Part shown: positions 1,004-58,009 of the stretch, piece after piece
How positions within the stretch are numbered: the stretch's first letter is position 1
Layout: every line of letters starts with the position of its first letter
Assembly (NCBI GenBank): GCA_045595285.1
Contig: JAZOAC010000135.1
Span: 23,822 to 87,821, forward strand
Direction: 5' to 3'
From: Kiritimatiellia bacterium
GTDB lineage: Bacteria; Verrucomicrobiota; Kiritimatiellia; RFP12; UBA1067
DNA length: 64,000 nt
Position numbers and translations under genes: made by a program
Notes under the pieces: model-generated
What the model was told of the DNA's origin: nothing
The model's input: only the letters and a program-made list of their open reading frames with translations
The model's database searches: none

Positions 1004-3418
1004 TCAGAAAAGCGTCATCTGCCCTGGAATGTCGGAGAGCTTCTTGCGCGGGCGGCGCACGATCTTCTGCGCATCGACGTCAAGGTCGTTCGCTTCAAGA
1101 TTCGCGAGTATCCGCCCCGCACGGTCCACCACCGCCTTCGGCAGACCAGCCATCGCCGCGACATGGATGCCGAACGACTTTTCCGCCACGCCCGGCACGA
1201 TACGGCGCAAAAACACAATCCTCTCCCCATCCTGCTTGACGCGGACGGTCCAGTTCTTGACCCCGGAAAATCTGTCCGCAAGGTCGGTCAGTTCATGGTA
1301 GTGCGTAGCAAACAGGGTTTTCGCCTTTACCTGCGGATTCTCGTGCAGATACTCCGCCACACTCCACGCGATGGAGATTCCGTCAAACGTCGATGTGCCG
1401 CGTCCGATCTCATCCAGCACAATAAGCGACCGGGGCGTCGCATTGTTCAGTATGTTCGCCGCCTCCTGCATCTCCACGAGGAATGTCGAGCGCCCACGCG
1501 AGAAATCGTCGCCAGCACCGATACGGGTGAAGATGCGGTCGAGCGAACCGATTCGCATCCTTGCGGCGGGAACGAACGATCCCGCCTGCGCCATGGCGGC
1601 TATCGTCGCAACCTGACGGATGTAGGTGGATTTGCCGGCCATGTTAGGACCGGTGATGAGCATTATCTGATCGCTGGTGCAGTTCAGCGAAGTTGAGTTG
1701 GGGACGAACGGCTCGGCATCAGGAAGCTGCTCGATGATCGGGTGGCGGCCATCCTCAATCTCCAGCACATCCGAATCATCGACCTCCGGGCGCACATATC
1801 CGGCCGCAAGCGCGCGGTCCGCAAAGGACAGCACCGCATCCAACTCGCCTATCGCAACGGCGGTCCGCTGCACAGCGGCCGTCCGTTCCGCAATCCGGGC
1901 GACAATCCCCTTGAACAGTTCCTGCTCGAGCGCACAGGACTTGTCCTGAGCGCCTACGACCTTCTGCTCGTACTGCTTGAGTTCGGGCGTAATGAAGCGT
2001 TCGCCGGTGGTAAGTGTCTGGCGGCGCTCGTACTCCGGCGGAGCCTGATGCACAAACGTCTTGGATATCTCAATGTAGAAGCCGAACACGGAATTGCGGC
2101 GCACCTTGAGAGTCTTGATGCCTGTACGCTCAATCTCGCGCGACTGATATTCCGCGATCCAGCGATGCCCTTCAGCGGCGAGATTGCGCAGTTCATCAAG
2201 CTCCGGGCTGTAGCCTGGAGCGATCAGGTTGCCTTCTGAGAGGATGATGTTGGGCTCTTCGGTGATGCCGCGGTCTATCAGATCGACAATCTCCGTTTCC
2301 GGCATAAGGCGTGACCGGATATCCGACAGCGCCGCGCATGCAGACTCTAACGAGTCCTTCAGGTCCGGAACAGGACGCAACGACGCCGCAAGCGCCTTCA
2401 AGTCACGTGCGTTCGCCCGGCCCGAATCGACCTTTGCGATAAGGCGTTCAAGATCCCTTACACCATCAAGCCTGGACTGAAGAATCGACAGCGTGGTGCG
2501 ATCCCTCACGAATGCCTCTACGGCGTCAAGACGTGCATTGATCTCCTCCTGACGGCTGAGTGGCTGACGCAGCCACGCCGCCAGACGACGCGCTCCCATG
2601 GGGGTCTTCGTCGCATTGAGAGCACCGAAGAGCGATGCCTCGCGCGTAACGCCATCGCCGGGCAGAAGCGCCAGATGCCGTATCGTTCCCGCATCCAGGG
2701 CAAGCGAATCCGACGACTCCCGCAGACGTACGGAACGGATGTGGTCGACCGCATGGTGAAGCGTGGTGTGCACATAATAGAGCAGAGCTCCCGCCGCGGA
2801 GACAAGCGCCCCCTTCCCTTCCAATCCAAAACCGTCAAGCGATGCCACATTGAAATGCCGCCTCAGTTCTTCGGTTGCGGCGTCAAGCGAAAACGTCCAG
2901 CGGTTGGAGTCGTCCGGACGCAAGATTTCGGCGGGACGGTAGCGTGCCAGAGCATCGTCAAGCTGAAGCTCCGTCCCAAACCCCTCCACGAAAAATTCAC
3001 CTGTGGACAGATCGAGAACCGCAATGCCAAGCCCCGACACCGCCGCAATGTAGTTGTTGGAGCAATCTTCAAGCAAACCGTCTTCCGTAACCGTGCCGGG
3101 GGTGATAATTCTGGTCACCTCGCGCCTGACAAGCCCCTTCACGGTTTTCGGATCTTCGATCTGATCGCACAACGCCGCCGTCATTCCGGCACGTATGAGT
3201 TTCGATAGATGGTTGTTGAGAGCGTGATGGGGGACTCCGCACATCGGCATGTTTCCACGACGGGTGAGAGTCGCCCCCAGAACAGGCGAGGCAACGACGG
3301 CGTCCTCGCCGAACATTTCGTAGAAATCGCCCAGACGGAACATCAGTATCGCGCCCTTTGGTATCTCCGACTTGATCCGGAGATACTGGCGCATCATTGG
3401 TGTTAGTTCTTCTGCCAT
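1004..3418 (-). CDS. mutS: DNA mismatch repair protein MutS
   Basis: 804 aa. N-terminus TPMMRQYLRIKSEIPKGAILMFRLGDFYEMFGEDA, Walker A ITGPNMAGKSTYIRQ, and STFLVEMQE / LVLDEIGRGTSTFDG motifs. ATG start and TGA stop checked in the DNA. Confidence 0.97.
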   Translation of the reverse strand: MAEELTPMMRQYLRIKSEIPKGAILMFRLGDFYEMFGEDAVVASPVLGATLTRRGNMPMCGVPHHALNNHLSKLIRAGMTAALCDQIEDPKTVKGLVRREVTRIITPGTVTEDGLLEDCSNNYIAAVSGLGIAVLDLSTGEFFVEGFGTELQLDDALARYRPAEILRPDDSNRWTFSLDAATEELRRHFNVASLDGFGLEGKGALVSAAGALLYYVHTTLHHAVDHIRSVRLRESSDSLALDAGTIRHLALLPGDGVTREASLFGALNATKTPMGARRLAAWLRQPLSRQEEINARLDAVEAFVRDRTTLSILQSRLDGVRDLERLIAKVDSGRANARDLKALAASLRPVPDLKDSLESACAALSDIRSRLMPETEIVDLIDRGITEEPNIILSEGNLIAPGYSPELDELRNLAAEGHRWIAEYQSREIERTGIKTLKVRRNSVFGFYIEISKTFVHQAPPEYERRQTLTTGERFITPELKQYEQKVVGAQDKSCALEQELFKGIVARIAERTAAVQRTAVAIGELDAVLSFADRALAAGYVRPEVDDSDVLEIEDGRHPIIEQLPDAEPFVPNSTSLNCTSDQIMLITGPNMAGKSTYIRQVATIAAMAQAGSFVPAARMRIGSLDRIFTRIGAGDDFSRGRSTFLVEMQEAANILNNATPRSLIVLDEIGRGTSTFDGISIAWSVAEYLHENPQVKAKTLFATHYHELTDLADRFSGVKNWTVRVKQDGERIVFLRRIVPGVAEKSFGIHVAAMAGLPKAVVDRAGRILANLEANDLDVDAQKIVRRPRKKLSDIPGQMTLF

Positions 3419-9486: not shown

Positions 9487-10878
9487 TTATATCCGTTTCG
9501 TTGCATTTGCAGCCTTACGAGGGGAAAATTCCAACACCTTGACGATTTTTTTGTTGTAGATGTCATGCACTGTCACTTTTAATTTTCCGTTTTCCGTCTT
9601 TCCCTCTATGACCGTCTGAAACTGTCCGCGGGCATTGTTCCATCTCCATCCTCCCGCAACAAGATGCGCCCAAGGACGGTCTTCGACGGGAGCATCATAA
9701 CGATATTTGTGGGTGTGAGCCGTCACAACAAGCTGTACGCCAGCCTTGATGAACAACGGTCCCCACATTTTCGAACAGGCTCTCTGCCAACTTGCAAAAT
9801 CCGTACGGTAGCGCGGGTCAGTATCGTTTGGATAGATGTCACCGGGGTTGCTTGTCGGATCGGAATCGAACAGCGGTATGTGGCAGAACGCGACAATGTA
9901 CGGGGCTGACTTTATCTCGGGACGTTCCAGCGCGTCGGCAAGCCATGCGGTCTGAGCGACACGATACGGCTCACTGCAGAAAAGCCCAGCGAACACATCA
10001 CGGGAATCAAGCTTGTCCTCGGCGGTATCCAACCCTATCAAAGCGATGTCGCCCTGCCGGAAAGCGAAATTTCTCCCAAGATCCCAGTCACGTGAAAGCC
10101 GCTCCTCCGGCTGGCGGAACATCACCACCTTCTCCAGTCTGCGGCATGCCATGCCTCGCATGTCATGATTGCCTGGCACGAAGCATACCGGCATCTCCGA
10201 AGCATAATCGCGACGTTCGATCGGAGGCGCGAGAAAAATATTGCGAAGGCTTTCGATCGTTTCCTGGGTATTACAGGCGTCACCATTCCAAATTACCACC
10301 GCAGGATTCAATTCCGCAACTTTGTCCGTCACCTGGGCGAACTCTTCCCATTTCGCGTGGGTATCGTTGTACACGCAGAAATGAGACCTTGCATCCTCCC
10401 CGGACGTGGTGAACGTATAAACCCGCGGATCCTGTTCAACGCCTATGATGCGCATCTTGTATCCGCCGCCGTAGAATATGCGGTCAGCCCCGATGCGGTA
10501 GAAATACTTTGTTGACGGTTTGAGACCGGTAAGCCTGACCAACATGACCTTATCGTTCATGTCTGTCACGCGGAATCCTCCGCACTTGACCTTGCGCGCA
10601 TTCCTCATATCCGCAAATTCCGAATACTCGACGAAACCGTTGGCCATCGCACTCACGGCAAATGCGACACCCATGGAAGTCGGCGCCGGATTCTGGAGCA
10701 TCGGAGCGGAAATTATCAGTTTTCCGGATGCGGACCGGGAATATCCTGTGTCTATTTCCGCGACAGCTTTGACACTCGCTCCGCCTGAGTGATCTACACT
10801 CCTTTGCGACACGCATCCAACACCTGCAACCGATGAGGCAACGGCGGCAAACGACTTTACAAAATCACGTCTGTTCAT
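9487..10878 (-). CDS. Tat-exported metallophosphoesterase (purple-acid-phosphatase-like)
   Basis: 463 aa. Twin-arginine leader MNRRDFVKSFAAVASSVAG. Metallophosphatase motifs NDTH, GDACN, GNHDMRG, CHIPLF, AHTHKY. N-terminal beta-sandwich-like region. Confidence 0.75.
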   Translation of the reverse strand: MNRRDFVKSFAAVASSVAGVGCVSQRSVDHSGGASVKAVAEIDTGYSRSASGKLIISAPMLQNPAPTSMGVAFAVSAMANGFVEYSEFADMRNARKVKCGGFRVTDMNDKVMLVRLTGLKPSTKYFYRIGADRIFYGGGYKMRIIGVEQDPRVYTFTTSGEDARSHFCVYNDTHAKWEEFAQVTDKVAELNPAVVIWNGDACNTQETIESLRNIFLAPPIERRDYASEMPVCFVPGNHDMRGMACRRLEKVVMFRQPEERLSRDWDLGRNFAFRQGDIALIGLDTAEDKLDSRDVFAGLFCSEPYRVAQTAWLADALERPEIKSAPYIVAFCHIPLFDSDPTSNPGDIYPNDTDPRYRTDFASWQRACSKMWGPLFIKAGVQLVVTAHTHKYRYDAPVEDRPWAHLVAGGWRWNNARGQFQTVIEGKTENGKLKVTVHDIYNKKIVKVLEFSPRKAANATKRI

Positions 10879-14009: not shown

Positions 14010-16634
14010 CTACCTTATCGAAATCTGGAATCCGGGGATGAACGGTTCAAGACCGCCATCAGCACCCACGCGTACGCGGAGCCTGTCGGCGCCGCAGCGT
14101 ATTTTGGAGATTGAACCGCTTTCAATGCGCAATGTCGCGCCGCTTCCGAGATTGTCCGAAACAAGAAGCGACGCACCTTCTTCGAAGGAGCAGGATACAA
14201 GCGTAAGCGTGGAACCATTCCCGAGAACCAACGGGGAATCCGCCTCCTTCACCACAAGTGCGCCGATGCTGTTCACGGTGCCTGACGCGGTCTCCAATCC
14301 ACCGCCGGCCAACCAGATCGCCGCCCTGGTGTTTTCGCCGGATTCCTGACGTTTGCGGCTTACCTTGAACTGGTCGCTTGCAGCAAGCCGCAAGACACCG
14401 TTGCTAACGCATATTTCGTTCGGAAGCGTGACATCCCCCGAGAGCTCCAATGTTCCGGTGCCATTCTTGACAACATGCACATTCCAGTATCCGTTCGCCT
14501 CCGTATTAAACGAATGATAATCAACGATATTCCCTGTGACGAAGAAATCCGAGCCGTCAGAAACATCATTTACGTTGAAAGTAAACGTCCTCTCTCCGTC
14601 ACCGCCCGCAGCCAAGATGACCAGACCACTCTCGCAAATGGATGGAGAATCGCCGGTCACTATCCAGTTAGCACGTTGTGCGTCATTCAGGACTCGTGCC
14701 GGCTTGCCCTTGATGTTTGCGCCATCCATAAACGTAACATAGTTCAAATATGTATCGGACTCCGTTGCACTTTCCTCCTCCTCGCGAATTGAGAGCGTCC
14801 CGCCAACAAGATCAATCTGATCTGTTGTAGCAGTCTGCAAAGCACCTTTCAGTTTAAGAACGCCATTTGTCATTACACGATATTTCGTCCAACGGGGATT
14901 TTGCACATGGCCGGAAAGTGTCAATGAGGCGTATGGATTTACGGTGACGACACTGTTGGAAGGAAATACAGTTGTGTCTACTGACCGCACCGCAAGCGGA
15001 GAGCTTTCACTTCCGCCGAATGTCAGGTTTCCGCCATTCACGGCGGTGCTTACAGCAGCATATACCACTCCTCCAGTAGCAAATCGCAGACGCAAATTTT
15101 TAATGCCCCTTGATGTTGCCGAATCCGACACCCCGAACCCTCCCAATGTCGTACGAGATGCCGTGGTATATTGTTTGTAGTTGTAAAAATCCAACCCGTA
15201 TGCAATCGATGGATCATCGACTTTCTTTATATACCAATTCCGATATCTTCCAGTGCGAGCCTCAATGTCGTTTCCATTCTGCTTCAAATCCAGCCCGATG
15301 CAATAGATATTGTTTTCATTTTCATCCTGAAACTGTACCGAACCGGCATTACCTGAAATATTCAGATTCACTCCATGCACATAATGCCCTTTATTGGCAT
15401 CATTATGATAGAAAGCATCCACCTCCACAAGATCCGAAAGATCATGGTTCTTTGCAATCGACGTGTAATAGTTTACTCCTCCGTCATCATATGCGTTAGG
15501 CATGTATTCCTCTCTTGCAACCGTAGCACGAGACCGGAATCTCAGGCCAATGTCTTTCACCCCGTGGCTGCCGCTTTCATCGGACGTCGCAAGGCTCCCA
15601 TATCGTCCCAACAAAGGCGAAGAACCTGCATCCGTGCTGAAATGCTCGAAGTCCATGCCCAAATGAACCTGATCGGCAAAGTAATCGTCTACAAGAACGC
15701 CATCCACATAATTTGTGGTAGAAATCTTATAGGTACGATATTTGCTCGTGTACGCTTCCACGTTTTCGCCGTTTTGCCTGAACTCCACAAGCACTCCCGT
15801 AACCAACGTGGGAGATGACTGCAACTGGAACTGGCATGTTTTTTCGCCAAAGCGACTACTTACGTGAGTATATTTAAGATTGTATGCCTGTTGTTCATCA
15901 AAGAGGTTTTTCCCGAAATGGTATTTCCCGGAAACCGAATCAAGATCGGCAAGGCTGCAGTTTTCCGCGACTACAACCCATTCAGCATCCGGGAGGTATC
16001 CGGCTCGAAAATGCGATGCGACTACGGCGTTTGTCACAATAATGTCGCCATTGCCTACTATCGTTTCGCCAATCGAGTCTCCCTCATATACGGAGTATTC
16101 GACCGGTGCGGCAGGCTTGCGCATGGCTATGAAACTTATGTTGAATGCTGAACGGGTACCTGCGGTGAGCGGACGTGGCAACACCCGAGGATTTTTCGCA
16201 TCAACCATTGCGTCAAGGTCCATGCCAAGTTCCACGTCAAGCGGGTTGAGCGAAGCCGCCCTAACAGTATAGGCTATAATGTCGTTTCCGCTTTGCACAA
16301 ACTTAACTGTGACCGAAGCTGTGTACGGCGTCGGCGTAGATGTGCGCGTTACACCCTGAAACTGCACAGTCGCCGACTCCACCCCATTTTCTGACGACCT
16401 GACGATGTTGTATGGTCGCAGAATCTCGTTGTGGAGATCCTGATTTATCTGCCACCGTTGCCCGGAAGACGAACCTTTATTAAAATAGGCGTATGCCGGT
16501 TCATAATCCGAAAGCTTCATACCTGTGAACACCGTATCCGGCTTGTCTGGATCCGATGAGAGCACCTCGTTTGAGGCAGCCTCAAAGGTAATGAAATCGT
16601 CCGACTGCTGAGCATTTGCAAGCAGCATAGTCAT
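14010..16634 (-). CDS. Large secreted beta-helix/PATR-like exoprotein, paralogue 1; signal peptide is encoded upstream of the first in-frame start (see poly-A tract)
   Basis: 874 aa. Three internal repeats of an unrecognised module, then a PATR-like segment (VKNGTGTLELSGDVTL ... NGVLRLAAS). Ends PGFQISIR. The frame is open upstream to TGA 16677-16679 and encodes KKKKIHLGLCVACSMTMLLANA. Confidence 0.8.
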   Translation of the reverse strand: MTMLLANAQQSDDFITFEAASNEVLSSDPDKPDTVFTGMKLSDYEPAYAYFNKGSSSGQRWQINQDLHNEILRPYNIVRSSENGVESATVQFQGVTRTSTPTPYTASVTVKFVQSGNDIIAYTVRAASLNPLDVELGMDLDAMVDAKNPRVLPRPLTAGTRSAFNISFIAMRKPAAPVEYSVYEGDSIGETIVGNGDIIVTNAVVASHFRAGYLPDAEWVVVAENCSLADLDSVSGKYHFGKNLFDEQQAYNLKYTHVSSRFGEKTCQFQLQSSPTLVTGVLVEFRQNGENVEAYTSKYRTYKISTTNYVDGVLVDDYFADQVHLGMDFEHFSTDAGSSPLLGRYGSLATSDESGSHGVKDIGLRFRSRATVAREEYMPNAYDDGGVNYYTSIAKNHDLSDLVEVDAFYHNDANKGHYVHGVNLNISGNAGSVQFQDENENNIYCIGLDLKQNGNDIEARTGRYRNWYIKKVDDPSIAYGLDFYNYKQYTTASRTTLGGFGVSDSATSRGIKNLRLRFATGGVVYAAVSTAVNGGNLTFGGSESSPLAVRSVDTTVFPSNSVVTVNPYASLTLSGHVQNPRWTKYRVMTNGVLKLKGALQTATTDQIDLVGGTLSIREEEESATESDTYLNYVTFMDGANIKGKPARVLNDAQRANWIVTGDSPSICESGLVILAAGGDGERTFTFNVNDVSDGSDFFVTGNIVDYHSFNTEANGYWNVHVVKNGTGTLELSGDVTLPNEICVSNGVLRLAASDQFKVSRKRQESGENTRAAIWLAGGGLETASGTVNSIGALVVKEADSPLVLGNGSTLTLVSCSFEEGASLLVSDNLGSGATLRIESGSISKIRCGADRLRVRVGADGGLEPFIPGFQISIR

Positions 16635-16663
16635 GCTGCAGGCAACGCAAAGACCAAGGTGTA

Positions 16664-16673
16664 TTTTTTTTTT
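16664..16673 (-). repeat. Homopolymer A10 (T10 on + strand) between GTG/RBS and the signal peptide of exoprotein 1
   Basis: Counted directly: gtaTTTTTTTTTTctttcac. GGAG at 16691-16694 and GTG at 16678-16680. A9 or A12 would fuse the GTG to the long ORF. Confidence 0.95.
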
Positions 16674-16714
16674 CTTTCACAACACCATTTCTCCTTTCTA
16701 ATGTTTGGAAACGA

Positions 16715-17863
16715 TTACCATTCGGCAACGGAGCCATCGGCATGACGCCAGACAGGGTTCTTCCAGTTGTGGGGATTCTTATTTTCCTCCATGACAAGCT
16801 CTTTGTTCACTTCGACACCGAGACCGGGGCGCTTCGGCAGCTCCACCGTGCCGTCAGTAAACTTGAAGTCATCCTTGTTGGTCACGTAATCGAGAACCGT
16901 CTTTCCGACATTGTAGTGGATGCCGATGGACTGCTCCTGGATAACCGCATTGTAGCTGATCGCATCGACGTGTAGGCACGCCGCAAGCGCAATCGGTCCG
17001 AGCGGACAGTGCGGAGCGAGCGCCACATCGTACGCCTCCGCCATAGCGGCAATCTTCTTGACTTCTGTAATGCCGCCGGCGTGCGAAAGGTCGGGCTGGA
17101 TGATATCCACGCCGCCAGAGGCAAGAAGCCTCTTGAAGTCATACTTGGTGAAAAGACGCTCTCCGGTCGCGATCGGCACATTGCATGCGGCGGCGATCTC
17201 CTTGAAGTCCTCCATGTGCTCGCAGAGAACAGGCTCTTCGATGAACATCGGGTCAAACTGTTCAAGCTTCTTCGCGAGCACCTTCGCCATTGGCTTGTGG
17301 ACGCGTCCATGGAAATCTATGGCGATACCGAAGTACTTGCCGCAGGCGTCTCGGATCTCCTGCACACGGGAGAGGACCGCATCCACCTTGTTATAAGTGT
17401 CGATCATCTGCAGCTCTTCGGTCGCGTTCATCTTCACCGCGGAGAATCCGGCGTCCATCTTCTCCTTCGCGGCGCGCCCGGTATCGCCGGGACGGTCACC
17501 GCCGATCCAGGAATAGACCTTCATCCTGTCGCGGCAACGTCCGCCCATCAGCTCATAGACGGGGGAGTTGAACACCTTGCCCTTGATGTCCCACAGCGCC
17601 TGATCGATACCGGAAAGCGCACTCATCAGCACGCCGCCGCCGCGGTAGAATCCGGCACGATAGATTGTGCTCCATATATCCTCGATGCGGGAAGGATCCT
17701 TGCCGATGAGATAGTCGTGGTATTCCTCCACGCAAGAGAGAACAGCCTTGGCATGTCCTTCAAGCACAGCCTCGCCCCATCCGGCCAGACCGGTATCAGT
17801 TACGATCTCCACAAATCCCCAGCGGGGACGGACAAAATAGACGTTTACCTTATCGATTTTCAT
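16715..17863 (-). CDS. dgoD: D-galactonate dehydratase (enolase superfamily)
   Basis: 382 aa. WGFVEIVTDTGLAGWGEAVLEGHAKAV ... YLIGKDPSRIEDIWSTIYRAGFYRGGGVLMSALSGIDQALWDIKGK closely parallels the DgoD N-terminal region as I remember it. Confidence 0.9.
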   Translation of the reverse strand: MKIDKVNVYFVRPRWGFVEIVTDTGLAGWGEAVLEGHAKAVLSCVEEYHDYLIGKDPSRIEDIWSTIYRAGFYRGGGVLMSALSGIDQALWDIKGKVFNSPVYELMGGRCRDRMKVYSWIGGDRPGDTGRAAKEKMDAGFSAVKMNATEELQMIDTYNKVDAVLSRVQEIRDACGKYFGIAIDFHGRVHKPMAKVLAKKLEQFDPMFIEEPVLCEHMEDFKEIAAACNVPIATGERLFTKYDFKRLLASGGVDIIQPDLSHAGGITEVKKIAAMAEAYDVALAPHCPLGPIALAACLHVDAISYNAVIQEQSIGIHYNVGKTVLDYVTNKDDFKFTDGTVELPKRPGLGVEVNKELVMEENKNPHNWKNPVWRHADGSVAEW

Positions 17864-55378: not shown

Positions 55379-57751
55379 TCAGCGAATGGATATTGCAAAA
55401 CCGTACTTCTTCAGATTGGCGATCAGAGTTACGGTACCGGCTTCAGTGACCTTGTCCAATTTGACCTTGTAGGAGGATAGCACGGAAGGACGAATAACCT
55501 CCAACAGATCAAGCACTGCCGCGCAACCGGAATCCACAGTCATCACGCCGAACGAATACTCATTCGCAGGCGTTTCATCGGCACATTCGACATATACCGG
55601 GATCTTCTTGGACGGATTGTCGTCAAGGAATGCAAGCGGCGAAGGCGATTTCACGTTGCAGATACCCTTCATCCGTGGTGTGCAGATCAAGCGCAAAACC
55701 GACTTCAAGCTTGGAAGTCTTGTTTGAGAACACGACATCCAGACCATCCAGTGCATGTGCGCTCAAAGGCTTCACCATGCCGCCCGCCACATAGAAAGTG
55801 CGCTTTGCGGCATCTTCAGGGATTTCGTCTGTTACTGTTCCTTCCGCATCAATAAAACGCAGATCGCCGCCAAGAGCAAGAGTACCGGAGCCTTCCTTGT
55901 ACATTTCTCCGTCAACCGTCAATTGCTGGAAGATCGCAAGTGACTTGTCTTCAGGCACGAGAAAACGTCCTTTCCAACGAATGAAGATGCCGCGGGTAAG
56001 CTCGGCTAGCGACATGCTATCCAGCACTTCCAATCTACTGGCTGAGTCAAGCGTCAAAGCATCATATGCAAATTCATTGCGGGGACCGCCAAGATTCTCC
56101 GCCCGCCGAACGACCAGGGAGGTGAAAGGATAGTTCATCTTAACATATGCTCTCGCATTCGTCGCACAGATTCTGCCGGCGAACCCCCTGTTGTCTCCAT
56201 CTAGACAAATTGTGGCGCCACATCTTGTTTCGGCGAAACCCTGCACTTGCAAAACCGACGCTTCATCGCCGGAGATTGGCCCGACAAGCCGGATTGTTCC
56301 GCTGTATTTTGGGGTCACTATTGTTCTGCCGGATAACATGAAATTGCTTCGTAAAGTCAAGTCACATCCGTCAAGACCTTGAATTTCCACACCGCCTTTC
56401 CCTCCGTCCAAAAGGAGATATGGTATCGTGTAATCTTTAATCCTGAAATATAATTTGGACGGATTTACAAATCGCATGGAACGTCCTGCAAACGACAGAG
56501 TGCCCTCAGGTGCATATCTTGTCGCGAAGCAACCTGTACCAGAACCTATTTTCCCTGTCTGGTATCTTATTCCGTTGCGAACCGGCTGACCATCACTCCA
56601 GTAATTGCCGTCTGTCTCCGCGACCACGGCGTCCTGCATTGTCATATCTATTTTATTGTTCTTAGTCTGCGTCACAAGAGGATAATAAGTAACATATATT
56701 GTCTTGGTCTTCCCATCATCGGAAACTTTCATTTCCACCGATGTTCCAGTCCTTATGTCGTAAGCCTCCTCCAGGATAAAGTCATCCAATGAGCATTGAC
56801 TGTCAACCGGCAGTGTCAGCAATGCATATCTGGTAGCCTCTTCAGGAGCCGAGGTCGGAGCGGTAAAATGTAAAACTGTACCTTTCCCCACCGTCAAACC
56901 ATTTAGAACCGCAAGCGAGCAATCGACAGAAGTCTTGAGCGTCGCACCTGTTTCAAGAGTAAGATTATCACGCACCTCAAAATTAGATACAGCAGACAAG
57001 TCGAGCGTTGCCCCACGCTTCAATATAATCGATCCAACAGATGTATTAACCTCAGCTTTAAAGACAGCGCCATTATCTGCGACAATCGAACCTCCAAAAT
57101 AAGTAGCCTTATCAGCAAGAGTGAATGTTGTGGTCAGAAGAGTTCCTGCTGAATTATATTGTGATGTTACAACCACCTCTCCAAGAAATTCACTTGCATC
57201 ACCCGAGAATTTCAACCCAAACGGACAACTTCCAAATTTGCCATTAACTCCTGAATGAACAATAATTCCACAATCTGATGCTGCATGAACATCATCTTTA
57301 AACGTTAAAGTCTCCTCTTGTTTACCGCTAAAAAGAACAAACGGAGCTGACTTCGGAGACGTAAAAGTCACTTTCCCACTTATTTTCGAACTCGCTGCAT
57401 TTACATGTAACGTACCATTTTCAAGAATCAAGCCACCACTGCCGGAATACGTCGCACTATAATAAGCAAAATAATCTCCAGCCTTTTCCTTATCCCCCAA
57501 TTTTCCAATCGTAAGCGAGCGAGCAGGTATGATCTCTCCACTAGATGTATAATATGTGTAACCTGACACTAAATAATCGCGATTCTTAACATCTTCTCCC
57601 TCTACCTCTGGCTCCCATGTAGCCCCTGCAAAACCAGTATCATGCGAATTATTCTCCTTAAGTCTCACATAATCCTCGCCTTCAGCAAATGCGAAGAATG
57701 GAATGAATGACATTGACAATGCCATAAGTACATTTTTTTTTCGCGGAACAT
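55379..57751 (-). pseudogene. beta-helix/PATR-like exoprotein, paralogue 3, disrupted twice (A9 tract after the start codon; +1 shift near 55665)
   Basis: ORFs 55623..57725 (700 aa) and 55379..55756 (125 aa, ending YGFAISIR like paralogues 1 and 2) form one gene. GGAG-N8-ATG lies at 57749-57763, followed by GAAAAAAAAA, and is out of frame with the 700-aa ORF. Confidence 0.75.
57733..57741 (-). repeat. Homopolymer A9 (T9 on + strand) between ATG/RBS and the signal peptide of exoprotein 3
   Basis: Counted directly: caTTTTTTTTTcgcggaacat. A10 would give MFREKKNVLMALSMSFIPFFAFA-EGEDY. Confidence 0.95.
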
Positions 57752-58009
57752 TTCAAAAACTCCTTTATTACCAAGAACTGGCGCTAATTATATCATATTT
57801 TGTCCGAGTGTGCCCGGGCAGACATGCACCGACTCAAGAACTTAAGAACTCACGACCTATCACACAAGTTGTTTCGCTGCCATACACAAGTCATTCTATT
57901 CATTTCGGCAGTCATGCGTCCCTCAACCTGTTATTTCGCCATAGTCTTGAACTTCTCAGTCACAGTGCGGACAACAAACTTCGGCCGCTGGAGCATAAAA
58001 TACACATTA

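What the first reader, a model, noticed from the sequence alone, without database searches (positions are those of the whole stretch)
16630..16700. An A10 tract separates the RBS/GTG start from the signal peptide of the 874-aa beta-helix exoprotein: candidate slipped-strand phase switch
On the coding (minus) strand the DNA reads AAAGGAG-N10-GTG AAA GAA AAA AAA AAT ACA CCT. That is a Shine-Dalgarno (16691-16694), a GTG (16678-16680) and then ten A (T10 at 16664-16673).
The long ORF is open upstream of its first ATG (16634) as far as TGA 16677-16679. There it encodes KKKKIHLGLCVACSMTMLLANA|QQ, a complete h-region plus an AxA cleavage site. That stretch contains no ATG, GTG or TTG. Initiation at Met-16634 would leave only MTMLLANA, which is too short to be a signal peptide.
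With A9 (or A12) the GTG reads straight into (M)KEKKIHLGLCVACSMTMLLANA-QQSDD, a canonical secretory leader. As assembled, the gene is therefore exactly one nucleotide from an ON register.
This tract and the A9 tract at 57733-57741 are the only homopolymers of 9 nt or more that I could find by eye in 64 kb. Both occupy the same position (codons 3-6, an E-K-K motif) of related exoprotein genes.
Basis: partly seen in the sequence, partly recalled or inferred. Interest (0 to 1): 0.8.

Follow-up and report, generated by a model that had tools for sequence, protein, structure and literature searches.

The report
Slippery poly-A run breaks secreted-protein gene
In an uncultured gut Kiritimatiellae bacterium, a run of ten A's right after the start codon puts a large secreted-protein gene one base out of frame; this is a familiar kind of slippage-prone on/off site, newly arisen in this strain, and a neighbouring gene family shows the same design really changing length between identical strains.

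Summary
On the minus strand, AAAGGAG, N10, GTG and then A10 (16673-16664) precede an intact 874-codon body whose frame is closed by TGA 16679-16677. A9 or A12 would give MKEKKIHLGLCVACSMTMLLANA|QQ.

All 11 close orthologues (96.7-97.7% identical where measured) read GTG AAA GAA AGA ATA (MKERIHLG...), in frame and with no homopolymer. The tract is strain-specific, 4 nt longer than in the relatives. No other assembly of this allele exists to show length variation. The rest of the gene shows no decay.

The comparison gene (A9, 57733-57741) gives the real evidence.
- It is also out of frame and needs A10.
- Its promoter and leader cassette is 94-98% conserved in front of bodies about 50% identical.
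- Its tract is A9, A10 or A11 in different assemblies.
- Two A9 contigs and ten A10 contigs are otherwise identical over 2,750 nt.

Best reading: a real, hypermutable poly(A) frameshift site acting as an ON/OFF (probably high/low) switch. It is established in the gene-2 family and newly born, or simply inactivating, in gene 1. This is a new member of a known kind, in a phylum with no reported phase variation. Raw reads are needed to settle it.

The parts
16691..16697 (-). Shine-Dalgarno AAAGGAG of gene 1, 10 nt upstream of the GTG
   Evidence: Read directly. The intergenic sequence is identical in orthologue locus L001.
16678..16680 (-). GTG, the true start codon of gene 1
   Evidence: Orthologues called from this GTG give MKERIHLGLCVACS... 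(P0042, P0044, P0048, P0050). L001 DNA confirms it.
16664..16673 (-). A10 tract (T10 on the + strand), beginning inside codon 3 (GAA). It puts the GTG frame +1 nt out of register with the gene body.
   Evidence: The orthologues have AAAGAA at this place, 4 nt shorter.
16677..16679 (-). TGA that closes the body frame upstream, overlapping the GTG
16611..16676 (-). Rest of the signal-peptide coding region in the body frame (KKKKIHLGLCVACSMTMLLANA, with an AxA cleavage site before QQSDD)
   Evidence: Translation. Residues 1-24 of the orthologue model form a low-confidence N-terminal helix.
14010..16634 (-). Gene 1 body as callable from the first ATG (874 aa). It belongs to an uncharacterised all-beta secreted Kiritimatiellae family.
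   Evidence: no Pfam; 37 homologues; no excess private substitutions; model pLDDT 88.8; no PDB match.
16715..17863 (-). Upstream enolase-superfamily (MR_MLE) gene. Its stop lies 34 nt before the GTG of gene 1, and the same synteny is seen in L001.
57733..57741 (-). A9 tract in codons 4-7 of gene 2. It is out of frame here; A10 is the in-frame length.
   Evidence: Relatives carry A9, A10 or A11.
57749..57751 (-). ATG1 of gene 2 (MFREKK...). With A9 it opens only a 28-codon ORF.
57760..57766 (-). Shine-Dalgarno AAAGGAG of gene 2, 8 nt before ATG1
57787..57795 (-). TGATATAAT, an extended -10-like promoter element of the conserved 5' cassette
   Evidence: Read. It is conserved in all related loci. 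Its function is inferred from the consensus only.
55623..57725 (-). Gene 2 body as callable from the internal ATG2 (MALSMSFIPFFAFA...; 700 aa)
55667..55671 (-). Junction of a 14-nt deletion (GAAGAGCTCCGCAC, between GAAG direct repeats). It frameshifts gene 2 a second time.
   Evidence: Alignment with five related loci.
55379..55666 (-). Displaced C-terminal part of gene 2 (GICNVKSPSPLAF...KKYGFAISIR), in another frame

Best explanation
The A10 run is a real, slippage-prone homopolymer. It arose in this strain between the GTG start and the h-region of the Sec signal peptide of an otherwise intact secreted protein.

Mechanism. At A10, ribosomes starting at the SD-served GTG leave the gene frame and stop after 32 codons, so no exported protein is made. 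This is the OFF state. Loss of one A (A9) or gain of two (A12) by slipped-strand mispairing at replication restores MKEKK(K)IHLGLCVACSMTMLLANA|QQ and export. This is the ON state. Runs of 9 A or more also make RNA polymerase and ribosomes slip, so OFF is probably 'low' rather than zero.

Relation to the second gene. The same design, SD + start + GAA-AAA-AAA-AA + signal peptide, is an established, length-polymorphic switch in the unrelated MFREKKNVLMALSMSF-leader family that includes the window's second gene. Gene 1 is best read as a newly born site of that kind, currently caught OFF.

Shown: the anatomy; the true start and leader; the absence of the tract in orthologues; the intactness of the body; and the A9/A10/A11 polymorphism of the sister design on identical backgrounds.

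Inferred: that the gene-1 tract itself switches back and forth; that this is selected for; and that the OFF state is leaky.
For: Anatomy:
- Tract, SD, GTG and frame relations.
- The only homopolymers of 9 nt or more in 64 kb sit in the first 7 codons of two secreted-protein genes, in a genome that avoids AAA-AAA.

Start and tract are genuine:
- Eleven orthologues start at the same GTG with the same leader.
- The tract is 4 nt longer than the orthologous AAAGAA, which a one-base error cannot produce.

The body is intact:
- 874 codons, 96.7-97.7% identical to the orthologues.
- 6 private substitutions, against 0-5 in the others.

The assembly looks sound:
- Other genes in the window are intact, including MutS.

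Sister design (gene-2 family):
- Tract lengths are A9 (window, L008, L009, L012, L013, L014), A10 (L002-L007, L010, L011, L016-L025) and A11 (MAG RGIG9083, L015).
- A9 contigs L012 and L013 have 0 differences from ten A10 contigs over 250 + 2,500 nt.
- L012 carries a MEGAHIT-style contig name (k141_) and L013 a scaffold-style name, and both give A9 for the same allele.
- OFF alleles keep intact bodies of 770-831 codons.
- The cassette is 94-98% identical from -30 to +90, and the bodies fall to about 50% beyond that.

Literature:
- Nine A or T is the typical threshold for transcriptional slippage and hypermutability (PMC1088944).
- A homopolymer beside the signal-peptide region causes ON/OFF switching and signal-peptide-less annotations in Gardnerella nanH3 (bioRxiv 10.1101/2020.09.16.300947).
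Against: - The gene-1 tract is absent from all 11 orthologues, so it is not a conserved regulatory feature.
- No second assembly of this allele exists, so no length variation has been observed at this tract.
- The source appears to be a single NCBI contig of 90.5 kb, probably a metagenome-assembled genome, whose reads I could not see. A one-base consensus error (true A9) remains possible.
- The same genome carries a second, irreversible lesion in gene 2, a 14-nt deletion. That fits a lineage simply losing surface proteins.
- The counts of A10 against A9 in relatives are biased, because most loci were retrieved through the in-frame protein.
Confidence: 0.5

Rival explanations
1. Dead-end frameshift. 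The A10 run is a real mutation that has simply inactivated gene 1 in this lineage. On this reading the gene is a very young pseudogene with no selected switching.
For: - Orthologues lack any tract.
- Gene 2 of the same genome is doubly broken, by the A9 tract plus a 14-nt microhomology deletion that removes the conserved C-terminal 90 residues. This lineage therefore does tolerate loss of such proteins.
- Only one assembly of this allele is known.
Against: - There is no other lesion in 874 codons and no excess of private substitutions.
- Going from AAAGAA to A10 needs a G-to-A change plus a net +4 nt. That implies repeated slippage steps, so the tract has already been moving.
- An A10 run is intrinsically reversible at high rate (PMC1088944; general knowledge of homopolymer slippage).
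Confidence: 0.25
2. Consensus or assembly error. The true tract is A9 (or a mixed population whose majority is in frame), and the gene is an ordinary intact gene.
For: - Homopolymers of 9 nt or more are the classic site of indel miscalls.
- The window comes from a single deposited contig whose reads and platform are unknown to me.
- Exactly one base separates it from the ON register.
Against: - No other gene in the window looks frameshifted.
- The window's two long tracts err in opposite directions: gene 1 needs -1 and gene 2 needs +1. That argues against a systematic platform bias.
- A9 at gene 2 is reproduced in contigs with two different naming styles (k141_ and scaffold) and for three other alleles.
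- Even if the length is off by one, a tract of 9 nt or more that relatives lack is still there.
Confidence: 0.13
3. Programmed recoding. The out-of-frame arrangement is the working state. Protein is made because RNA polymerase drops or adds an A on the run (transcriptional slippage), or because ribosomes slide on the poly-lysine codons. The tract would then set a fixed low expression level rather than a heritable switch.
For: - Runs of 9 A or T are where transcriptional slippage becomes efficient in many bacteria, and some genes use it (PMC1088944).
- In the gene-2 family, A9 alleles with intact bodies recur for four different alleles in the same upstream context.
- The A9 allele also contains a perfect A_AAA_AAA -1 slippery heptamer in the ATG1 frame (read).
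Against: - Programmed cases keep the out-of-frame layout in orthologues. Here the gene-1 orthologues are in frame without a tract.
- Most gene-2 relatives are in frame at A10: about 30 MFREKKNVL... proteins against a handful of OFF ones.
- No stimulatory element was looked for or found.
Confidence: 0.12

Closest known systems
Gardnerella nanH3 sialidase poly-C tract (bioRxiv 10.1101/2020.09.16.300947)
   Same: - A homopolymer sits at the signal-peptide coding region of a large secreted or surface protein of a mucosal commensal.
- Out-of-frame lengths make annotators call a protein without its signal peptide from a downstream start. That is exactly what happened here (the 874-aa NCBI call, P0045).
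- In-frame lengths differ by 3 (C9/C12 there, A9/A12 here).
   Different: - There the tract is poly-C, lies just after the signal peptide, is present in all nanH3 genes and was shown to vary within cultures.
- Here it is poly-A, lies before the h-region, is absent from orthologues of gene 1, and was not tested on reads.
Neisseria pilC poly-G tract and opa CTCTT repeats in the leader-peptide coding region (from my own knowledge: Jonsson et al. 1991; Stern et al. 1986; the opa work is listed in the references of PMC3960869)
   Same: A translational ON/OFF switch made by a repeat inside the signal-peptide coding region of surface proteins. In opa, a conserved 5' end stands in front of variable bodies in a multigene family, as in the gene-2 family here.
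   Different: - Different repeat type and phylum.
- The Neisseria switches are experimentally proven and conserved across strains.
Helicobacter pylori sabA: promoter T-tract 'rheostat' plus 5' coding repeat (PMC4081817)
   Same: Related loci L002-L007 and L011 combine a T8-T10 tract just upstream of the promoter with the A10 tract in the leader. Both are of slippage-prone length. The T-tract varies between contigs that are otherwise identical.
   Different: - sabA uses CT dinucleotide repeats in the coding region.
- The promoter effect here is untested.
- The window's own gene-2 locus lacks that T-tract.
Transcriptional-slippage genes with 9A/9T runs (Shigella mxiE, IS-element transposases; PMC1088944)
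   Same: An A/T run of 9 nt or more separates two reading frames, so a fraction of transcripts would be in frame.
   Different: Those cases conserve the out-of-frame layout. Here the in-frame state is the ancestral one (gene 1) or the majority one (gene 2).

Membership tests
Simple-sequence-repeat contingency locus (phase variation by slipped-strand mispairing) | A repeat tract long enough to slip (homopolymer of about 8-9 nt or more) in the 5' coding region or the promoter | tested here: met
   A10 at 16664-16673 and A9 at 57733-57741.
Simple-sequence-repeat contingency locus (phase variation by slipped-strand mispairing) | Changes in tract length toggle between a full-length product and a short truncated peptide | tested here: met
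   - Gene 1: A10 gives 32 codons from the GTG, while A6, A9 and A12 give 888-890 aa.
- Gene 2 family: A9 gives 28 codons, A11 gives 23, and A10 gives 780-840 aa.
Simple-sequence-repeat contingency locus (phase variation by slipped-strand mispairing) | Tract length differs between otherwise identical or near-identical genomes | tested here: inconclusive
   - Gene 1: no second assembly of the allele is available.
- Gene 2 family: met. A9 and A10 occur with 0 differences over 2,750 nt. P0095 and P0085 differ by 1 residue. A11 is found in L015.
Simple-sequence-repeat contingency locus (phase variation by slipped-strand mispairing) | The tract is maintained at the same site in orthologues | tested here: not met
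   - Gene 1: all 11 orthologues read KERIHL (AAAGAAAGAATA in L001).
- Gene 2 family, by contrast: the tract is present in every locus read.
Simple-sequence-repeat contingency locus (phase variation by slipped-strand mispairing) | Reversible, high-frequency switching within a clonal population | not testable with these tools
   This needs raw reads, single-colony fragment analysis or a culture. No reads are available here.
Programmed transcriptional slippage gene | An out-of-frame layout across an A/T run that is conserved in orthologues | tested here: not met
   Gene-1 orthologues are in frame without a run. Most gene-2 relatives are in frame at A10.
Programmed transcriptional slippage gene | mRNA length heterogeneity at the run that yields the in-frame product | not testable with these tools
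   No transcriptome data. A run of 9 nt or more meets the sequence prerequisite (PMC1088944).
Decaying pseudogene | Further disabling mutations or relaxed constraint in the body | tested here: not met
   - Gene 1: no stops or extra frameshifts, and 6 private substitutions against 0-5 in the orthologues.
- Gene 2 of the window does meet this feature, through its 14-nt deletion.
Sec (SPase I) signal peptide on the repaired N-terminus | A positively charged n-region, a hydrophobic h-region and an AxA cleavage motif | tested here: met
   By inspection only, as no predictor is available. MKEKK / IHLGLCVACSMTMLL / ANA|QQ. Orthologues show the same with KER. The model has a low-confidence N-terminal helix at residues 5-20.
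   - No Pfam or NCBIfam hit.
- Best PDB match E = 3e-3 with TM <= 0.13.
- Ag43 and Hbp appear only at probabilities 0.25 and 0.06.
- Only the C-terminal 340 or so residues show solenoid-like short strands.

The most novel reading that the evidence does not exclude
Gut Kiritimatiellae run a multi-gene contingency system. A portable promoter + SD + poly(A) leader cassette acts as a translational switch, and in some loci a promoter-proximal poly(T) tract adds a rheostat. The cassette drives hypervariable secreted proteins that all end in a shared C-terminal G-x-x-I-x-I-R tail. New poly(A) switches are still being born at the leaders of unrelated exoprotein genes such as gene 1. This would be the first phase-variation system described in this phylum, found in uncultured commensals of ruminants.
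Probability: 0.3. Interest if true: 0.6.

Novelty: new member of a known kind. Interest (0 to 1): 0.45.

Why it matters
Homopolymer switches at the leaders of surface proteins are well known in pathogens such as Neisseria, Helicobacter and Campylobacter, and in a few commensals. I found no paper that links Kiritimatiellae or Kiritimatiellota with phase variation or homopolymers.

If the tracts switch as inferred, three things follow:
- These abundant but uncultured gut glycan degraders vary their exported proteins stochastically. That bears on phage and host interactions.
- It changes how their MAGs should be annotated. The public calls of this gene include an 874-aa protein without a signal peptide and 909-aa proteins with a spurious N-terminal extension that overlaps the upstream gene.
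- The clonal A9 and A10 contigs from named samples make the question directly testable on existing read sets.

For the specific tract in the finding, the practical message is narrower. It is a strain-specific frameshift at a slippery run, and reads must be checked before calling it a switch, a pseudogene or an error.

Tried and rejected
- Exact look-up of the window's own proteins to find the source contig or sister assemblies failed in the look-up of encoding contigs. The listing of cluster members showed only one NCBI contig of 90,545 bp.
- Pattern scans for the gene-1 leader in JGI metagenomes and GTDB genomes found nothing. The gene-2 leader pattern found one MAG, L015, with A11.
- The last two contig look-ups went on close relatives of the upstream enolase gene, to sample gene-1 loci without bias. 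They landed on loci that have no gene 1 downstream.
- In-frame A6, A9 and A12 versions of the window allele are not in the protein collection.
- Structure search and family libraries gave no identity for either protein.
- A lipoprotein signal was considered and rejected. LGLC and CVAC do not fit the lipobox consensus (my own reading).
- Initiation at ATG 16634 was rejected. It leaves MTMLLANA with no SD, and the orthologues show the longer leader.
- A general low-quality assembly was rejected. The apparently overlapping ORF pairs in the window are distinct intact genes.
- Homology between the two tract-bearing genes was rejected by hhalign.
Full report
**1. The observation**

Reading the minus strand:
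- The upstream enolase-superfamily gene ends at TAA 16717-16715.
- AAAGGAG lies at 16697-16691.
- Ten bases later comes GTG 16680-16678.
- Then AAA GAA runs into ten A's (16673-16664; T10 on the + strand).

In the frame of the long ORF there is a TGA at 16679-16677. From 16676 that frame reads KKKKIHLGLCVACSMTMLLANA|QQSDD. It has no ATG, GTG or TTG before ATG 16634, which is where ORF-finding starts the 874-aa product. Deleting one A gives MKEKKIHLGLCVACSMTMLLANA-QQSDD from the GTG.

A census of the whole window finds only three homopolymers of 7 nt or more: T7 at 9546, T10 at 16664 and T9 at 57733. There are 17 runs of 6 nt.

Composition alone makes an A9 not very rare. Dinucleotide shuffles give a mean of 0.61 matches, and 7 of 100 shuffles reach 3 or more. 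The placement is what is unusual:
- Both long runs fall in the first seven codons of secreted-protein genes.
- The genome prefers AAG (495) to AAA (219).
- It encodes only 1 of 30 Lys-Lys pairs as AAAAAA.

**2. Whose gene this is**

The repaired protein finds 37 homologues, all unnamed or 'hypothetical protein [Kiritimatiellae bacterium]', from metagenomes and MAGs.
- It has no Pfam or NCBIfam family.
- An AlphaFold model of the 98%-identical orthologue P0042 is confident (pLDDT 88.8, pTM 0.82). Residues 1-24 form a low-confidence helix, which is the signal peptide. Three repeated beta-sandwich modules follow, and the C-terminal third is solenoid-like.
- Nothing in the PDB matches it. The best E-value is 3e-3 with TM <= 0.13. 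'Beta-helix exoprotein' is at best a partial description.
- The neighbours are glycan-use genes: GH78 rhamnosidase, PfkB kinase, an SSF symporter, GH109, GH16, metallophosphoesterases, GH2 and GH28.

**3. What the orthologues show for gene 1**

The 90%-identity cluster around the closest homologue holds 18 sequences, of which 15 are listed. The window's own product is there once, as a signal-peptide-less 874-aa NCBI protein on a 90,545-bp contig.

Every other member that reaches the N-terminus, 11 sequences in all, reads KERIHLGLCVACSMTMLLANAQQSDD. Five of them are called from the GTG as MKERIHLG... (four of 888 aa and one 590-aa product). The other six carry a spurious 21-residue extension, MRTAASPNGNRFQTLERRNGVV... 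or MPMAPSPNGN..., because the frame is open back into the enolase gene.

The DNA of one of them (L001) has an intergenic region identical to the window's, followed by GTG AAA GAA AGA ATA CAT. Three conclusions follow:
- The GTG and the leader are the real ones.
- The orthologues have no homopolymer.
- The window's A10 replaces AAAGAA, a G-to-A change plus a net gain of four bases.

That last point rules out a simple one-base miscall as the origin of the tract. It does not fix the exact length.

The body of the window's gene is intact. It is 96.7-97.7% identical to ten orthologues and has 6 private substitutions, against 0-5 in the others. In-frame A6, A9 and A12 versions of this exact allele are not in the protein collection. 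I therefore have no second look at this strain.

**4. The second tract is where the evidence lies**

At 57733-57741 the minus strand reads AAAGGAG (57766-57760), N8, then ATG TTC CGC GAA AAA AAA A|TG TAC..., with ATG1 at 57751-57749.
- With A9, as assembled, ATG1 opens a 28-codon ORF. The 700-aa body can only be called from an internal ATG with no SD (MALSMSFIPFFAFA...).
- With A10 it reads MFREKKNVLMALSMSFIPFFAFA|EGE.

So this gene is also one base from ON, in the opposite direction to gene 1.

Its homologues begin with an identical MFREKKNVLMALSMSF[IM]PFFAFAE leader, although the mature parts are only 42-50% identical in all but one (P0052, 90%). At the DNA level, identity across loci is 94-98% from -30 to +90 of ATG1 and falls to about 50% beyond +90. 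This is a conserved promoter-leader cassette, including a TGATATAAT extended -10-like box, in front of hypervariable bodies.

Tract lengths read from DNA:

| Length | Sources |
|---|---|
| A9 | window, L008, L009, L012, L013, L014 |
| A10 | L002-L007, L010, L011, L016-L025 |
| A11 | L015 (MAG RGIG9083, water-deer rectum) |

The decisive comparison is between A9 contigs L012 and L013 and ten A10 contigs from other samples of the same study. They differ at no other position over 250 nt upstream and 2,500 nt downstream. L012 carries a MEGAHIT-style contig name (k141_) and L013 a scaffold-style name, and both give A9. P0095 (A9) differs from P0085 (in-frame leader) by one residue. OFF alleles keep intact bodies of 770-831 codons.

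The tract therefore changes faster than anything else in the gene. That is the signature of a hypermutable contingency tract.

Caveat: most A10 loci were retrieved through the in-frame protein, so the ON:OFF ratio is biased. Two 'MALSMSF' calls (L010, L011) are really in-frame A10 genes with a mis-called start.

**5. State of the window's gene 2**

Besides A9 it carries a 14-nt deletion (GAAGAGCTCCGCAC, between GAAG direct repeats) at about 55667-55671. This shifts the last 95 or so residues, including the conserved ...KKYGFAISIR end, into another frame. In this genome gene 2 is irreversibly broken. That makes the A9 state credible as real. It also shows that this lineage tolerates losing such proteins.

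**6. Mechanism and rivals**

The best-supported account is a translational ON/OFF switch by slipped-strand mispairing in a poly(A) run placed between the start codon and the h-region of the signal peptide. This is well supported for the MFREKK family and inferred for gene 1.

Runs of nine or more A/T are also where transcriptional slippage becomes efficient (PMC1088944), and ribosomes can slide on AAA repeats (my own knowledge). The OFF state is therefore likely to be leaky. The A9 allele of gene 2 even contains an A_AAA_AAA heptamer in the ATG1 frame.

For gene 1 specifically, three rivals remain:
- A young dead-end frameshift. The orthologues lack the tract and gene 2 is decaying in the same genome.
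- A one-base consensus error, with A9 as the true length.
- Recoding as the normal mode of expression.

Against a sloppy assembly:
- The other genes of the window are intact, including all five MutS domains.
- The two tracts are off in opposite directions.

Against programmed recoding, the in-frame state is ancestral for gene 1 and the majority state for gene 2.

I give the hypermutable-switch reading 0.5.

**7. Comparison with known systems**

- The closest published parallel is Gardnerella nanH3. A poly-C run beside the signal-peptide region varies within cultures and causes signal-peptide-less annotations (bioRxiv 10.1101/2020.09.16.300947).
- Neisseria pilC (poly-G in the leader) and opa (CTCTT in the leader, conserved 5' ends, variable bodies) work the same way (my own knowledge; the opa work is listed in the references of PMC3960869).
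- Some related loci here add a T8-T10 run 22 nt upstream of the TGATATAAT box. It differs (T9 against T10) between contigs identical over 2,434 nt. This recalls the sabA T-tract rheostat of H. pylori (PMC4081817).
- Membership in the class 'SSR contingency locus' is met on tract length and on frame logic. For the gene-2 family it is also met on polymorphism and on conservation. For gene 1 the conservation criterion is tested and not met, and polymorphism is untestable here.
- The two tract-bearing proteins are not homologous (hhalign probability 0.8%).

**8. Novelty and verdict**

No paper in the searchable library links Kiritimatiellae or Kiritimatiellota with phase variation or homopolymers. 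The mechanism itself is classical, so this is a new member of a known kind.

The finding as written is a correct observation with a plausible but unproven interpretation. The tract is strain-specific, and reads are needed to tell a live switch from a fresh pseudogene or a one-base error.

The more interesting result lies just outside the finding: a conserved poly(A) leader cassette with documented A9, A10 and A11 variation on clonal backgrounds, driving hypervariable secreted proteins in uncultured gut Kiritimatiellae.

Interest: 0.45.

Noticed in passing
window 57733-57766 (minus strand); L002-L025: The second tract (A9) is itself out of frame and needs A10. Relatives carry A9, A10 or A11 at this site. 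A9 contigs and A10 contigs are otherwise identical over 2,750 nt.
   Followed up: yes
window 55667-55671: A 14-nt deletion between GAAG direct repeats frameshifts gene 2 a second time and detaches its conserved C-terminal 95 or so residues. Gene 2 is a true pseudogene in this genome.
   Followed up: yes
L002 2852-2861, L003 2928-2936, L006 286-293, L007 44-53, L011 900-908: A T8/T9/T10 tract lies 22 nt upstream of the TGATATAAT box of the same gene family, in a different upstream context (dnaX, then a DHODB-like gene). T9 and T10 occur on contigs identical over 2,434 nt. It may tune the promoter, as the sabA T-tract does.
   Followed up: partly
window 57660-57800 and the equivalent parts of L002-L025: There is a sharp mosaic boundary. 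From -30 to +90 of ATG1 the loci are 94-98% identical. From +90 the bodies fall to about 50% identity, and the C-terminal 90 or so residues are conserved again. The window's body is 90% identical to P0052, which sits behind a different upstream region in other assemblies. This suggests cassette-flanked exchange of alleles.
   Followed up: partly
window 14010-14033 and 55379-55402 (C-termini); P0098-P0246: Both unrelated protein families end in a short tail, G-[FLM]-x-[ILV]-x-[IV]-[RK]-COOH (PGFQISIR, YGFAISIR, AGMLLLVR...). In the gene-2 superfamily (1,007 representatives at E <= 1e-3, top 150 inspected) most sequences end this way. No Pfam or NCBIfam model matches. It may be an undescribed C-terminal sorting signal of Kiritimatiellae.
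   Followed up: partly
P0016, P0022, P0033, P0037 (gene-1 family); P0150 (gene-2 family): Some homologues are 150-250 residues longer at the N-terminus. They carry sigma-70 region 2/4 domains (PF04542, PF04545, PF08281) or a zf-HC2 anti-sigma domain (PF13490), or begin with an anti-sigma-like MNCQEC... motif. The beta-rich body may therefore also serve as the outer domain of anti-sigma factors. Alternatively these could be fused gene calls.
   Followed up: no
window 16634-16800; P0001, P0040, P0041, P0043, P0047, P0049, P0045: Public gene calls for this gene are inconsistent. There are 909-aa versions with a spurious 21-residue extension that overlaps the enolase gene, 888-aa versions from the GTG (correct), and the 874-aa window version without a signal peptide.
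   Followed up: yes
window 1004-3418: An intact MutS with all five domains is encoded in the same window. The tract instability therefore need not reflect a mismatch-repair-deficient mutator.
   Followed up: partly
window 16682-16688: ATG GTG TTG TGA forms a 3-codon mini-ORF in the body frame. It lies right after the SD and overlaps the GTG start. It is identical in L001. Its significance is unknown.
   Followed up: no
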